Position numbers: made by a program. This document shows, piece after piece, positions 21,001-27,000 of a stretch of DNA of 64,000 bases (positions are counted from its first letter, which is position 1; each line of letters opens with the position of its first letter). This DNA is from Candidatus Woesearchaeota archaeon (GTDB taxonomy: Archaea; Nanobdellota; Nanobdellia; Woesearchaeales; SKGA01): NCBI GenBank assembly GCA_046546105.1, contig JBKGYN010000001.1:52441-116440 (forward strand), read 5' to 3'.

Positions 21001-24000
21001 TCGTGGCTGCTCTCAAGAACCTTGGTTTCGACAACGAGCTACAGCGACTTGAGAATGTCTCTATTCGAGCAGGTGTTGGTAAAAGACGTGGACGTCCTAA
21101 GCAGAACCGTAAGTCGGTTTTGTTTGTTGTCTCGAAGGATTGCCCTCTTCTTAGGGCAGCAAAGAACATTGCTGGTGTCGATGTCGTGCCAGTGTCAAGT
21201 CTCAACGCAGAGCTCCTCGCTCCCGGAACACAACTTGGCCGGGCGACGCTTTTCACGGACGCGGCTCTTGATGTTCTAGCACAGCAGAACCTCTTCACTG
21301 AGGCAAGCACGGCAAGGTGAGATTAAATGAATATCATTCCCTTATCAACGGAAAAATCAATCAGGCTCATGGAGTCTGAAAACAAGCTCATCTTCATGGT
21401 TGACGTTAGCGCTACCAAAGCCGATGTCAAAAACGAGATTGAATCGTTGTTTGACGTGAAGGTGAAAAAAGTCAACACTCTCATCGGACCTGATGCAAAG
21501 AAACGGGCATATGTCACCTTCTCCGATGAGACGCCAGCAGTGGATCTCGCGACCAAGCTGGAACTAATGTAATCAGATAACAATCAAGAAAGGTATCGAA
21601 AATGGGAAAGCGCATTACTGCTCAAAAACGGGGACGTGGCTCTTTACGCTACCAGGTCCATTCATTTCGCTACAAAGGAAAGGCTAAGACCTTGCGTGGC
21701 CGAGACAGTGCTCTAGTCACAGACCTTGTCAGTTGTAAGGGGCACAGCGCTCCGCTTGCTCAAGTCTGTTATGATGATGGTACCGCCGGCTTCACCATCG
21801 CACCGGAAGGTCTCTGTGTAGGCGATGTCATTGACATGTCTTCCCAGGCGAAGCTTGATCACGGTAACGTCTTGAAACTCGATGATATTCCTGAAGGGGT
21901 CTCTGTGTTCAATCTCGAATCAGTTCCCGGTGATGGGGGAAAATTCGTTCGATCTTCAGGAAATTATGCTAAAGTGGTTTCAAAATCCAAAGCAGGTGTC
22001 GTCGTGGAATTTCCTTCGCGCAGGCAACGAAGCTTCAATCCTGATTGCAGGGCAACTATTGGTGCAGTTGCTGGTGGTGGCCGTGTTGAAAAGCCATTCC
22101 TCAAGGCGGGAAACAAATACAAGGCCATGAAAGCACGGAACAAATATTGGCCGCGAGTATCTGCAAATTCAATGAACGCTGTCGACCATCCATTCGGAAA
22201 CAGTCGAAGTTCGTTCAAGGCAAAATCACGACCTGCACCTCGAAACGCTCCGCCAGGACGACGTGTTGGTGCAATCCGGCCTCGAAAGACCGGACGATCA
22301 CGTTCACGGAGGGTATGATAAATGGCATTGAAAGAATTCAAATACCGGTCACGATCGCTTGATGACTTGAAACAGATGACTCTTGATGAGTTGGCGGAGA
22401 TTCTGCCTTCGCGAGCGAGAAGGACCATCAAACGAGGCTTCTCGGAAGAACACAAGAATCTTATCAAAAAGATCGAGAAAAAGGATAACGTCAAGACGCA
22501 CTTCAGGGACATGATTGTGCTTCCTTCGATGGTTGGACGGACCGTTCAGATCCACTCTGGCAAGAACTTCCAGCCAGTGACTCTCACTGAAGAGATGATT
22601 GGTCACTATTTCGGGGAATTCGTCCTGACCCGTAAGCGTGCAGCGCATACGAATGTCGGAGTGACAAATAAACCTAAGAAGTAGGTAGAGTCAAATGGTA
22701 ACTACAAATTATTCCTTCAAGAATTTCGATGACCATACAGCGAAAGCCTATGGTAAGGACCTTGATATCTCGACCAAGGCTTCTATAAGCATTTGTAATG
22801 TCATTCGTGGCATGGATGCGAAAAAAGCGGTCGAATACCTTCAGGCTGTTGTTGACAAGAAAAAAGCAGTTCCCTTCACACGGTTCACCGACGGTGTCGG
22901 ACATCGGAAAGGACGGATGGCTGCTGGTCGTTACCCTGTCAAGGCTGCCCGATCCATCGGCAGGCTTGTTGCATCTGCAATGTCGAACGCTGCTGCACAA
23001 GGGATGGATGAGAACCTGAAAATCACCCATATCTGTGCCCAGAAAGCTTCCCAGCCTCTTCATCAGGGCCGTCAGATTCGTCGTAGCATGAAACGGACTC
23101 ACGTCGAAATTGTTCTTCGTGAAGACGAATCAGCTGCTAAGGCAAAACGATCCCCGAATAAACAAGCTGCTAAGAAATCCTCTTCCAAAAAGACGACTAA
23201 AAAAGCAGCAACCAAAAAGCAGGCTGCTGGTGATGGCGAGCAGGGTTCCGAAAATAATGTTTCGAAGACTGTCAAGCAGGCTGCTGACAATTCAAAAGCT
23301 GATCAAAAATCCAGTGAGGTCTCACAATGATCGAGAGAAAATTTGTTGCGCAGAATTTCAAAGAATTCCAAATCAAAGAATTCGTCAAGAAATCCTTGAG
23401 CCGTGTAGGTCTTAGTGACGTCAAGCTCAAACGGACTAGTCTTGGAGAGAGGGTCATCGTTTCAGCGTCAAGACCTGGCCTTGTTGTCGGCCGTGGCGGT
23501 TCTAACATTCAGGGTCTGACCAAAGAGCTCAAGAAACGATTCGAACTCGAGAATCCTCAGATCGAGATTGAAGAGATCAAAGATTTCAACAGCAACGCTG
23601 CAGTTGTCGCTGAAATGATTGTCAACCAGCTTGAACGTTTCGGCACTCGCCGGTTCAAAGGTATAGGTCACAAATCAGTCGATGCTGTCATGAGAGCTGG
23701 CGCGCTCGGTGTAGAGATTCTTATCTCCGGTAAGATTCCTTCTTCACGAAGCAAGACGTGGCGTTTCGCTGATGGATACATGAAAAAATGCGGTGACCTT
23801 GCTATTACAGGTGTTGACACTGCTGTAGAGACTGCAAACCTCAAGACTGGCGCAGTCGGTGTTCAGGTCCGTATCATTCCTGGCAATATCCGACTTCCTG
23901 ATCAGGTGGAATTCAGTGAGCAGGTAGCAGGAAGTGTTGAGAAAGAAGAAACCCCTGACCAGATTGCAGAAGATTCTTCTGTAGAGATCTCTGAATCTGA

Positions 24001-27000
24001 CGAGGAAGTCAAAGCAGATAGTGAAACTGGAAAGGCTGAAAATCAGAAACAGACCGCGAAAAAATCCGCTAAGAAGGCTTCCAAGAAGGCTGCTAAGAAA
24101 GCATCCAAGAAATCAACTAAGAAGACATCAAAAAAGGCAGCAACCAAAAAGCAGGCTGCTGGTGATAGCGAGCAGGGTTCCGAAAATAGCACTCCAGAAA
24201 CTGTAAAGCAGACTGCCGATAAAGACTCTTCAGGTGATGAGAAGTGAAATTCAAAGAATTGAAAGAGATGACTTCCGAGCAGCGCGAGAAAAAACTCAAA
24301 GAAGCACGCATTGAGCTTACCAAGCTTCAGGCACAGGTAGCTTCAGGCACACCGCCTAAGAATCCGGGTCAAATTGGACAGCTCAAAAGGATGATTGCGC
24401 GGTTGAATACTTTGGACACTCAAAAGAAGAGGACTGTATAATAAAATGGTTGAATACGATCCAATCACCGGATTGCCGAAAGAGCTTTCCGCTTGGGATA
24501 ATATTGCTAAAGAAGGACAGAAAATCAAGGTCAAGGTCATCAAGAAGAAATTCGGTAAACAATACACAGTGATTGAAGGGATTGACACAAGCGATCTTGA
24601 TATAAAGGATATCGCGAAAAAACTCAAGAACAAATTCGCGTGTGGCGGCACCGCAAAAAAGGATGTTGTCGAACTCCAGGGAAACCATCTTCGGGAAATC
24701 AAGGATGCTCTGGTCGATATCGGCTTTCCGCCGGAAACCATTGAGATCAATAAGAAAATTGGAAGGTAAAGCATCACGTTCATACATTGGAAAAACGGTC
24801 ACTGTCCTTGAGTCGAGCAACGATTCATATATCGGTTGCGCTGGAACGGTTGTTGATGAGACGAGATTTTCGTTTCTCATCGAAACCTCCGGTAGCGTTC
24901 GTAAACGCGTGCTCAAGAAGGGATCGACATTCTTGATTGATGGGGATGTCGTTGATGGTGACATTATAATAAAACGTCCGGAAGAAAGGATCAAATCACG
25001 AGGAAAATGACGATGAAAACAATCAGTGTTCGCGGAAAAACGTTCGTCGGAACAGTCGTTAGTGACAAGATGAACAACACAGTATTAGTGGAATGGGAAC
25101 GGCGAGTTCCTATCCGGAAGTTCGAGCGTTATGAGAAACGACGCTCCAGAGTGCCAGCTCACAATCCTGATGAGATTGACGCTAAAGAAGGCGATGTTGT
25201 CCGGATTAAAGAGACCAAACCACTCTCGAAAACGAAGAACTTCATAGTCACCGAAATAGTATCGAAAGCCGAATAAGACGAGTGTGATTGAAATGAAAGC
25301 TATCAAAGCAAACATGACAAACGGCCTTCAAGTCGGATCAGAAATCGAGACCTGCGATAACTCCGGAGCGAAGGTCATCAAGATCACTGGTGTAAAGAGA
25401 AAGAAGACTGTCAAAGGACGTGTTGCAGGTGCAGGTGTCGGTGACATGGTTGTTGCTGCAGTCAAGAAAGGACGTCCTGACATGAGAAAATCAGTAGTGT
25501 TCGCTGTCATCGTAAGGCAGCGCAAAGAATATCGTCGCGCAGATGGTACTCGTGTCTCTTTTGAGGATAACGCTGCTGTTGTTCTGAAAGACGAGAATGG
25601 CAATCCGAAAGGAACTATTTTCAAAGGTCCTATTGCAAAAGAAGTCACTGCCAAATGGCCTGCGGTTGCAAAGGTCGCAAACATTATCGTATAATCATCA
25701 TTGAAGGTTCGAGAAAATGAAATCCGCATATTCAGTTCATTGGAAATCAAGCACGAATCCTCGTAAACAGAGGAAATATCAGTATAATGCACCTCTTCAC
25801 ACGAGAGGTTCTTTCCTCCATGCACCACTTTCCAAAGAGCTTCGTAAGAAGCACAACACCCGCTCTGCACGTGTGCGAAAAGGTGACAAAGTGGCTATCA
25901 TGAGAGGTCAGTTCAAAGGACGGACTGGCACGGTCGATCGTGTCGATCTTAGCCGAAACAAGATTTATGTCGCCGGTATGGAGCTTTCCAAGAAAGACGG
26001 TTCCAAAGTGCCGTACCCTCTTAATGCATCGAACGTGATGATCACGACCATCGCTTCCGATGACAAGCGGCGTTTCAAATCAGCAAGCAATAAATCAACG
26101 AGTGAGGAATAAAAATGGTAAAACAGCATCTTAAACGATTATCAAGTCCTCGAACATGGCCTATCGCTAAGAAGAGCCTGACTTTTGTCGCAAGACCTCG
26201 ACCAGGCGCTCATAAGATTGACATGCAGGTTCCGCTATCTTTAGCTCTTCGTGATATGATCGGCGCTGTCGAGACGACTAAACAGGCTAAGTTCATCCTC
26301 CACAATAAGGAATGCCTTGTCGACGGAAAAGTTGTCCATGACGTGAAGCGTCCGGTCGGTTTCATGGATGTCATCTCTCTCCCTAAAGCGAAAGAGCATT
26401 ACAGGATTCTTGTCAATAAGAGAAACAAGCTTTACGCAGTTAAGATTTCAGAAAAAGAATCATCTCAGAAGATAGCTCGTGTCATCAACAAGACGACCCT
26501 CAAAGGCGGAATCATGCAGTTGAACACATTTGACGGTCGATGTGTCCGTGTTGACGATGCTTCCAGATACGCTGTAGGTGATTCTTTGATCCTCTCACTT
26601 CCTGACCAGAAGATTTCTGATTTTCTCCCGCTGAAAAAGAATGCGACCATCCTTCTTACAAGGGGTAGTCACGTTGGCGAGATCGGAACTATCGAGGATA
26701 TAGAGGATAGTGTGGTCACTGTCAAGACCGATGATAAAACTTTCCGGACCAAAAAAGAGTATGCTGTCGTCATCGGAAAGACAAAGCCGGTCATCACATT
26801 ATAATAATCTAATAGCAGGTTTTGAAAATGAACGTGATGAGACAAATCAAAATCGAGAAACTGACTCTGAATATAGGGGCAGGTAAGGATACTAAAGTAC
26901 TTGAGAAAGGTAAGCTACTCTTGAAACACATCACGGGAATCGAGCCTGTCCAGACCAAGACCAACAAGCGTATCGCTGGTTGGGGTCTTCGTCCTGGCCT

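What the first reader, a model, noticed from the sequence alone, without database searches (positions are those of the whole stretch)
22695..24247. A ~90-nt K/A-rich tail module duplicated between adjacent ribosomal proteins uL22 and uS3
Both proteins carry long lysine/alanine-rich C-terminal extensions absent from typical archaeal orthologs. Nucleotides ~23200-23290 (L22 tail) and ~24129-24220 (S3 tail) are nearly identical, encoding KKAATKKQAAGD(G/S)EQGSEN... This implies recent duplication or gene conversion of a tail module between neighbouring genes. The tails resemble histone-H1-like KAKK repeats and probably contact rRNA or other polyanions. L32e, S5 and ScpB in this window also carry long charged tails, suggesting a lineage-wide tendency.
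Basis: seen in the sequence. Interest (0 to 1): 0.55.

Follow-up and report, generated by a model that had tools for sequence, protein, structure and literature searches.

The report
Shared tail module in uL22 and uS3
Two neighbouring ribosomal protein genes of an uncultured Woesearchaeota archaeon carry floppy lysine-rich tails that have recently copied a ~60-base stretch from one to the other, and similar in-frame tail sharing turns up independently in other species of the group, which suggests how such tails arise and spread.

Summary
Window 23187-23290 (uL22 tail) and 24119-24222 (uS3 tail) form an ungapped, in-frame 104-nt direct repeat at 83% identity. Its core is 58 nt with 2 mismatches, and these are the only two copies in the 64 kb.

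The organism is a Woesearchaeota (DPANN) MAG. Long tails on uL22 and uS3 are ordinary for this clade, although solved archaeal ribosomes lack them, and AlphaFold2 models both tails as disordered.

A sister lineage settles the interpretation. Its two tails also share a module, but with a different sequence. In a four-way alignment, 7 substitutions and 2 indels in the module group the copies by genome. In the 3' flank, 13 of 14 informative sites group them by gene. This mosaic is the signature of gene conversion, that is, concerted evolution.

Other species share different modules between the same two tails (L025, L034, L016). Some share modules with uL4, uS17 or uL24 extensions. Copying between tails is therefore recurrent within the operon.

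The tails themselves appear weakly constrained. Only their last codons are conserved, and these double as the Shine-Dalgarno site of the next gene.

This is a new variant of a known process, of moderate interest. What the tails do was not tested.

The parts
22695..23330 (+). uL22 gene (211 aa). The conserved core is about residues 1-143/152. The C-terminal tail is about 23124-23327.
   Evidence: Pfam Ribosomal_L22 covers residues 18-142. Solved archaeal uL22 chains are 150-156 aa. AF2 pLDDT is 34-45 for residues 157-211, with no secondary structure.
23327..24247 (+). uS3 gene (306 aa). The core is residues 1-196. The C-terminal tail is 23915-24244, with three charge blocks: acidic (-12), basic (+17), acidic (-5).
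   Evidence: Pfam KH_2 covers residues 16-85 and Ribosomal_S3_C covers 108-183. Solved archaeal uS3 chains are mostly 186-229 aa. AF2 pLDDT is 43-60 for residues 197-306.
23187..23290 (+). Repeat copy A, the older homologous module in the uL22 tail.
   Evidence: 104 nt at 83% identity to copy B, ungapped and in frame.
24119..24222 (+). Repeat copy B, the older homologous module in the uS3 tail.
23199..23256 (+). Recently homogenised (conversion) tract, uL22 copy.
   Evidence: 56/58 nt identical to 24131-24188. Third codon positions differ at 1/19, against 32-43% between WIN and sister cores. Mismatch clustering p = 0.0004.
24131..24188 (+). Recently homogenised (conversion) tract, uS3 copy.
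24062..24129 (+). 12/24-nt tandem codon array encoding (KKAS/KKST)n. It lies immediately 5' of the tract and is the likely homology or slippage substrate.
   Evidence: Tandem Repeats Finder: period 24, 2.8 copies; period 12, 3.4-4.4 copies.
23316..23330 (+). End of the uL22 tail, doubling as the Shine-Dalgarno-like GAGGT (23316-23320) and the ATGA stop/start overlap for uS3. It is conserved between orthologs.
   Evidence: Sequence. The ortholog tails end ...EVSQ in P0121-P0127. SD-like motifs are found in 34/73 uL22 tail ends against 11% of interior windows.
24233..24247 (+). End of the uS3 tail, doubling as the SD-like GGTGAT (24233-24238) and the GTGA stop/start overlap for uL29. It is conserved between orthologs.
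   Evidence: Sequence. The ...SSGDEK end is shared by WIN, the sister and L004. SD-like motifs are found in 36/81 uS3 tail ends against 13% of interior windows.

Best explanation
The two genes encode ordinary uL22 and uS3 cores. Each core is followed by a predicted-disordered, lysine/alanine/serine-rich polyampholyte tail that is translated up to the stop/start overlap with the next cistron. An older copying event made the distal parts of the two tails homologous, covering at least 104 nt. Since then a sub-tract of about 58 nt has been homogenised again by non-reciprocal copying between the two direct copies 932 nt apart. The copying could be ectopic gene conversion or replication template switching. 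It was probably seeded in the repetitive AAR-AAR-GCN-NCN lysine codon arrays that border the tract. A crossover between the copies would delete the essential uS3 core, so only conversion products should survive. The same process recurs across Woesearchaeota and also involves extensions of uL4, uS17 and uL24. Tail sequence evolves fast and in concert within a genome, and only the last ~6 codons are held constant because they carry the ribosome-binding site of the downstream gene. What is shown: the repeat, its statistical significance, the mosaic phylogenetic signal, the recurrence in other species, the predicted disorder and the SD-like tail ends. What is inferred: the molecular recombination mechanism, that the tails project from the ribosome surface and bind rRNA non-specifically, and that their sequence is under weak constraint.
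For: The repeat is real and non-random. The sister lineage consists of L100 and L005, whose 669-nt overlap is identical. Its two tails share a different module, KKAASKKQ(S/A)SESKADDS..., at 83% over 52 nt. Four-way alignment A3 was scored for quartet-informative sites. In module columns 25-76, 7 substitutions, a 12-nt indel and a longer indel group copies by genome, and none group them by gene. In columns 122-213, 13 sites group by gene and 1 by genome. No site supports the third topology. Fisher p = 7e-5. WIN and sister cores differ at 43% (uS3) and 32% (uL22) of third codon positions, whereas the WIN tract differs at 1/19. Recurrence: 9 of 73 species have a within-genome uL22-tail/uS3-tail score more than 5 SD above codon shuffles. 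Scores above 25 occur in 4/73 within-genome pairs against 0/5254 between-genome pairs, p = 3e-8. The modules are unrelated in sequence and always in frame: L025 45/47 nt, L034 53/54 nt, L016 34/35 nt. In 81 loci (444 kb), 20 of the 23 dispersed repeats of at least 25 nt and 88% identity touch a uL22 or uS3 tail, and the other three lie in uL4, uS17 or uL24 extensions. All 23 are direct, and the copies checked read as the same peptide. They include uL22 tail vs uS17 N-extension (L036, 100 nt at 97%) and uL4/uL22/uS17 (L046). Disorder is predicted. A tandem codon array abuts the tract.
Against: Only one close sister lineage and one outgroup (L004/L006) were available, and the outgroup shows no detectable tail-to-tail homology. 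The age and direction of the events are therefore not resolved. Recombination itself is inferred from sequence patterns. About 64 of 73 species show no signal, so the process is episodic. All genomes are metagenome assemblies. One supporting case (L054, identical 112-nt contig ends) may be an assembly effect. Whether the tails are retained on mature ribosomes is unknown.
Confidence: 0.8

Rival explanations
1. There was a single old duplication of a tail segment with no later conversion. The high-identity core simply reflects stronger purifying selection on that part of the peptide in both proteins.
For: All four tails (WIN and sister, uL22 and uS3) share homology in the 3' zone (..KQxxD..). 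This shows a duplication that predates the split.
Against: The core is not conserved between orthologs. WIN has AAGD(G/S)EQGSEN where the sister has (S/A)SESKADDS(K/G)E, with genome-specific indels shared by both paralogs. Third positions inside the tract are nearly identical (1/19), against 32-43% divergence in the cores.
Confidence: 0.07
2. The shared module is a functional short linear motif, for example a common docking site or modification site. It would be kept identical in both proteins by selection, and conversion would merely be the means.
For: The sharing recurs in several species and always between r-protein extensions. The module spans the junction between the basic and acidic blocks in both tails.
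Against: The module sequences are unrelated between species. About 64/73 species share nothing detectable. One of the two differences in the WIN tract is non-synonymous (G/S), and the flanks differ at 6 further residues. No Pfam domain was found in the tails.
Confidence: 0.07
3. The repeat is an assembly or binning artefact, that is, a chimeric join through low-complexity sequence.
For: All sequences are MAGs or short-read contigs. L054 shows identical contig ends at a tail repeat.
Against: Two assemblers give identical sequence over 22001-24500. The longest exact match between the copies is 30 nt, with diverged flanks inside the same repeat. Both copies are embedded in frame between unique conserved core and tail-end sequence. 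The sister lineage shows the same architecture in two separate samples.
Confidence: 0.03
4. The repeat is a nucleotide-level element, such as an RNA structure, a regulatory site or a small mobile insertion, that happens to lie within coding sequence upstream of the next cistron.
For: Both copies lie 22-37 nt upstream of the next start codon.
Against: There are no inverted repeats in 22000-25000 and no Rfam family in the window. Only two copies exist in 64 kb. In other species the shared modules sit at variable distances from the stop, for example 214 nt upstream in L025 uL22. The copies are always in the same reading frame.
Confidence: 0.03

Closest known systems
Concerted evolution of duplicated genes by gene conversion in prokaryotes (for example tuf genes and rRNA operons; surveyed in PMC6053082)
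   Same: Copies within a genome are more alike than orthologs between genomes. The pattern is mosaic, with discrete tracts. The copying is non-reciprocal and occurs between nearby repeats.
   Different: The participants here are not paralogous genes. They are appended, disordered low-complexity tails of two non-homologous essential genes (uL22 on the large subunit, uS3 on the small subunit). The tracts are very short (about 35-100 nt), and the process also reaches uL4, uS17 and uL24 extensions.
Low-complexity regions in prokaryotic ribosomal proteins (PMC6821194)
   Same: That survey found A/E/K-rich LCRs to be frequent in bacterial and archaeal r-proteins. Archaeal S3 is among the LCR-bearing families, and lysine-rich LCRs were proposed to bind nucleic acid.
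   Different: The survey describes the presence and composition of LCRs. It does not describe sharing of the same sequence between different r-proteins of one genome. The Woesearchaeota tails are also much longer (up to about 140 aa) and nearly universal in the clade.
Eukaryote-type C-terminal extensions of uL22 (L17e) and uS3
   Same: The same two proteins carry C-terminal extensions beyond the archaeal or bacterial core. Solved eukaryotic chains are 153-203 aa for uL22 and mostly 209-262 aa for uS3.
   Different: phmmer aligns eukaryotic uL22 chains to query residues up to about 180, into the start of the tail, and no uS3 chain aligns past residue 243. The shared module (residues about 169-187 of uL22, 269-287 of uS3) has no match in either. 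The Woesearchaeota tails are not conserved even between sister lineages and are predicted to be disordered.
Gene conversion among repetitive gene families such as mycobacterial PE/PPE (PMC13061034, seen in title and abstract only)
   Same: Short-tract conversion between repetitive coding sequences generates diversity and homogenisation.
   Different: Those are large paralogous families of surface or virulence proteins. Here the sequences are tails of core translation proteins within one operon.

Membership tests
uL22 (Ribosomal_L22, PF00237) | L22p/L17e domain over its full length, at the operon position between uS19 and uS3 | tested here: met
   Pfam match covers residues 18-142, model positions 1-104 of 104, at 49.6 bits against a cutoff of 28. 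Gene order is L3-L4-L23-L2-S19-L22-S3-L29. phmmer matches archaeal uL22 chains over residues 5-143.
uS3 (KH_2 + Ribosomal_S3_C) | An N-terminal KH type-2 domain followed by the S3 C-terminal domain | tested here: met
   KH_2 covers residues 16-85 (56.8 bits) and Ribosomal_S3_C covers 108-183 (53.2 bits). The AF2 core has pLDDT mostly 73-94 over residues 1-190. PDB hits to archaeal uS3 reach E = 4e-46.
Ectopic (non-allelic) gene conversion / concerted evolution | Paralogous segments within a genome are more similar than orthologous segments between genomes | tested here: met
   In the module zone, 7 substitutions and 2 indels group copies by genome and 0 group them by gene.
Ectopic (non-allelic) gene conversion / concerted evolution | A mosaic pattern: a discrete tract flanked by sequence that keeps the orthologous signal | tested here: met
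   In the 3' zone, 13 sites group by gene and 1 by genome. Fisher p = 7e-5. Mismatches in the WIN repeat are clustered, p = 0.0004.
Ectopic (non-allelic) gene conversion / concerted evolution | Direct observation of the recombination event or its intermediates, such as population polymorphism or experimental conversion | not testable with these tools
   No read-level data were available and there is no culture.
Tandem-repeat (slippage) low-complexity expansion | Head-to-tail copies of a short unit | tested here: not met
   A 12/24-nt array exists at 24062-24129. The shared module, however, is a dispersed two-copy repeat 932 nt apart and is not periodic.
Small mobile element (MITE or insertion) | Terminal inverted repeats, target-site duplications and multiple genomic copies | tested here: not met
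   There are no inverted repeats in 22000-25000 and only two copies in 64 kb. The remainder of the genome was not searched.
Described structured RNA element (Rfam) | A match to a curated covariance model | tested here: not met
   There were 0 matches at gathering threshold in the whole window.
Histone H1-like / AKKA-type basic tails | Lysine/alanine-rich repeats that bind nucleic acid non-specifically | tested here: inconclusive
   The composition fits in part. The uS3 basic block KQTAKKSAKKASKKAAKKASKKSTKKTSKKAATKKQAA has net charge +17. Binding could not be tested and no Pfam family matched the tails.

The most novel reading that the evidence does not exclude
Woesearchaeota ribosomes may carry a deliberately shared surface module on proteins of both subunits (uL22, uS3 and, in some species, uL4, uS17, uL24). 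Selection for identical tails would keep the copies alike, for example as a common handle for a host-contact, hibernation or condensation factor in these episymbiotic cells. Operon-internal gene conversion would be the maintenance mechanism rather than a neutral by-product.
Probability: 0.07. Interest if true: 0.8.

Novelty: new variant of a known kind. Interest (0 to 1): 0.45.

Why it matters
How ribosomal proteins acquire and diversify terminal extensions is an open question, and such extensions are a hallmark of eukaryotic ribosomes. The data here suggest a concrete route in an archaeal lineage. Disordered lysine-rich tails grow next to translationally coupled gene junctions. Pieces of these tails are then copied between neighbouring genes of the same operon by short-tract conversion, in frame and repeatedly. 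There is also a practical consequence. Perfect or near-perfect repeats inside universal marker genes can break assemblies (L054 is a possible example) and can mislead alignments of concatenated ribosomal proteins used for DPANN phylogeny if the tails are not trimmed.

Tried and rejected
1. A homolog search with the module peptide was meant to look for the module on other proteins. The 44-aa query returned no candidates, not even the source protein.
2. A JGI metagenome scan for closer relatives found nothing closer than 81% core identity. The conversion history therefore rests on one sister lineage.
3. The outgroup L004/L006 shows no tail-to-tail homology at DNA level or protein level (z = 1.8). 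Polarity and age of the first duplication remain unresolved.
4. A protein-level Smith-Waterman test with residue shuffles proved insensitive, because shuffled low-complexity tails score highly. Only WIN (z = 13.6) and L034 (z = 4.6) exceed z = 4. The DNA-level test was used instead.
5. An RNA element, a mobile element and an assembly artefact were considered and rejected.
6. Four literature searches found nothing on tail sharing between non-homologous r-proteins or on Woesearchaeota r-protein tails.
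Full report
**What is there.** The window carries the archaeal S10/spc ribosomal protein operon, in the order L3, L4, L23, L2, S19, L22, S3, L29, SUI1, Rpp29, S17, L14, L24, S4e, L5 and onwards. uL22 is 22695-23330 (211 aa) and uS3 is 23327-24247 (306 aa). The stop of each overlaps the next start (ATGA, GTGA). The exact uS3 and uL22 proteins are on record as 'Candidatus Woesearchaeota archaeon'. The same contig appears in NCBI GCA_046540075.1 and in a Logan assembly of SRR21542053. Both are identical to the window over 22001-24500.

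**Check of the observation.** The repeat finder reports an ungapped 104-nt direct repeat, 23187-23290 vs 24119-24222, at 83% identity and 932 nt spacing.
- The core, 23199-23256 vs 24131-24188, is identical at 56/58 nt. It is in frame 0 in both genes and encodes KKAATKKQAAGD(G/S)EQGSEN.
- The exact 30-mer and 21-mer inside the core occur only at these two places in 64 kb, with 0 expected in shuffles.
- Against codon-shuffled versions of the same tail, the local alignment score is 52 versus 10.8 +/- 1.7, z = 24.5.

**The tails.**
- Pfam domains end at residue 142 of uL22 and residue 183 of uS3.
- Solved archaeal uL22 chains are 150-156 aa. Solved archaeal uS3 chains are 186-229 aa, with one of 318 aa. 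The window proteins therefore carry extensions of about 60-68 aa and about 110 aa.
- Within Woesearchaeota this is normal. Across 79 species-level loci, every uS3 has 30-142 extra residues, and 71 of 79 uL22 have 26-121 extra residues.
- AlphaFold2 with clade alignments models both cores confidently. It gives pLDDT 34-45 for uL22 residues 157-211 and 43-60 for uS3 residues 197-306, with no secondary structure.
- The uS3 tail has three charge blocks: acidic (-12), basic (+17) and acidic (-5).
- A 12/24-nt tandem codon array encoding (KKAS/KKST)n lies at 24062-24129, directly 5' of the shared tract.

**Why this is gene conversion and not just a duplication.** A sister lineage is available as two overlapping Logan contigs, L100 (uL22, P0122) and L005 (uS3, P0002). 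Their 669-nt overlap is identical.
- Core divergence: the sister differs from the window at 15.5% of nucleotides and 43% of third codon positions in uS3, and at 32% of third positions in uL22.
- The sister's two tails also share a module, but with a different sequence: KKAASKKQ(S/A)SESKADDS(K/G)E..., 83% over 52 nt.
- In the four-way alignment, informative sites in module columns 25-76 all group the two copies of one genome. These comprise 7 substitutions, a 12-nt indel and a longer indel. None group the orthologs.
- In the 3' part (columns 122-213), 13 sites group the orthologs and 1 groups by genome. No site supports the third topology. Fisher p = 7e-5.
- The two WIN copies differ at 2/57 nt and at 1/19 third positions inside the tract, far less than the ortholog divergence. 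Mismatches within the 104-nt repeat are clustered, p = 0.0004.

The 3' part of the repeat is homologous among all four tails (..KQxxD..). The history is therefore an older duplication covering at least 104 nt, which predates the split. It was followed by later homogenisation of a sub-tract of about 50-60 nt, independently in each lineage. The next outgroup, L004/L006 (94% uS3 core identity), shows no detectable tail-to-tail homology.

**Recurrence in the clade.** For 73 species with both tails at least 20 aa long, I compared each uL22 tail with each uS3 tail at DNA level.
- Nine species score more than 5 SD above their own codon shuffles: WIN, L025, L034, the sister (L005), L016, L079, L070, L044 and L051.
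- Scores above 25 occur in 4/73 within-genome pairs and 0/5254 between-genome pairs, p = 3e-8.
- The modules are unrelated in sequence and always in the same frame: L025 KSKEVK(V/A)KKTEEKK (45/47 nt), L034 EEKPAKKEPEKKVE(Q/K)PV (53/54 nt), L016 SKKSSTKK(T/N)SK (34/35 nt).

A self-comparison of 81 loci (444 kb) found 23 dispersed repeats of at least 25 nt and 88% identity. Twenty touch a uL22 or uS3 tail, and the other three lie in uL4, uS17 or uL24 extensions. All 23 are direct, and the copies checked read as the same peptide. They include:
- the uL22 tail vs an in-frame N-terminal extension of uS17 (L036, 100 nt at 97%);
- three copies in the uL4 tail, the uL22 tail and the uS17 extension (L046);
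- the uS17 end vs the uL24 end (L056);
- an internal duplication within a uS3 tail (L027);
- a contig whose two ends are identical for 112 nt, with one end in the uS3 tail and the other in K-rich sequence just upstream of uL23 (L054). This last case is possibly an assembly break at a perfect repeat and is treated with caution.

**What stays constant.** Tail interiors are not alignable even between close relatives. The last codons, however, are conserved...EVSQ in uL22 and ...SSGDEK in uS3. These codons contain GAGGT (23316-23320) and GGTGAT (24233-24238), each 5-6 nt upstream of the next start codon. Across loci, SD-like motifs occur in 44-47% of tail ends, against 11-13% of windows inside the tails. 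I infer that the tail ends are constrained as ribosome-binding sites for translational coupling, while the interior is free to vary by in-frame changes.

**Mechanism (inferred).** Short-tract non-reciprocal copying takes place between two direct, partly homologous sequences 932 nt apart. It is probably initiated in the repetitive lysine codon arrays. A reciprocal crossover would delete the uS3 core and be lethal, so only conversion products are seen. The tails are most likely surface-exposed, weakly constrained polyampholyte regions whose basic blocks may bind rRNA non-specifically. This last point follows from general knowledge of the positions of uL22 and uS3 on the ribosome and of lysine-rich LCRs (PMC6821194). 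It was not tested.

**Rivals rejected.**
- Chance similarity is excluded by the statistics.
- An assembly artefact is unlikely: two assemblers agree, exact matches are at most 30 nt, and the sister lineage was recovered in separate samples.
- There is no sign of an RNA or mobile element: no Rfam match, no inverted repeats, only two copies, and variable positions in other species.
- A conserved functional motif is contradicted because the module is not conserved among orthologs.

**Comparison with the known.** LCRs in prokaryotic r-proteins are documented (PMC6821194), and so is concerted evolution of paralogs (PMC6053082). Four literature searches found nothing on exchange of tail sequence between non-homologous r-proteins of one operon, or on Woesearchaeota r-protein tails. 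I classify the finding as a new variant of a known process, of moderate interest.

Noticed in passing
window 52034-52312: GGGTTCGAATCCCTTTCCCCGCA (52034-52056) resembles a tRNA T-arm plus the 3' acceptor strand. The motif CTTTCCCCGC occurs four times within two 76-nt direct repeats (52059-52134 and 52237-52312, 97%). Even so, ARAGORN and Rfam find no tRNA or any RNA family in the whole 64 kb. It could be a split or non-canonical tRNA, or att-like remnants.
   Followed up: partly
window 54488-54619: There is a perfect 56-nt tandem duplication plus a partial third copy. The unit begins in the last codons and stop codon of ORF 53772..54512, so the 3' end of that gene is reiterated downstream.
   Followed up: no
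window 17461-19119 (+): This 552-aa ORF corresponds to the gene with weak DNA primase Pfam hits in L001/L002. It ends in a 60-aa K/S/R-rich tail, showing that tails are not limited to ribosomal proteins.
   Followed up: no
window 28564-29241 and 30256-31155: eL32 (225 aa) has a charged tail of about 95 aa after its Pfam domain ends at residue 130. uS5 (299 aa) has an A/G/E-rich tail of about 64 aa after residue 235. Neither shares DNA with the uL22 or uS3 module.
   Followed up: partly
L036 1901-2000 vs 3585-3684; L046 313-395, 2340-2382 and 3990-4072: In other Woesearchaeota species the uL22 C-tail shares 83-100 nt at 92-97% with an in-frame segment upstream of the uS17 core and with the uL4 C-tail. 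The modules are proline/alanine-rich (PAAQKATPAESP..., PAEPKAAPAKPTQSP...). Rpp29 was not detected in these two loci.
   Followed up: partly
L054 1-112 vs 2884-2995: This 2995-nt contig has identical 112-nt ends. One end lies in the uS3 tail and the other just upstream of uL23, probably in a uL4 tail. Either a perfect tail repeat broke the assembly or this is an assembler artefact.
   Followed up: no
window 23316-23320 and 24233-24238; tail ends in L006-L085: The last codons of the uL22 and uS3 tails carry Shine-Dalgarno-like motifs for the next cistron (GAGGT, GGTGAT). This explains why only the tail ends are conserved. The motifs are enriched at tail ends across the clade.
   Followed up: yes
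L007, L008, L010-L012 and other loci; L057: Many genome records titled 'uncultured Methanosarcinales archaeon', and one titled 'Candidatus Aminicenantes bacterium' (L057), carry uS3 genes 60-78% identical to this Woesearchaeota uS3. These look like mislabelled or contaminated bins.
   Followed up: no
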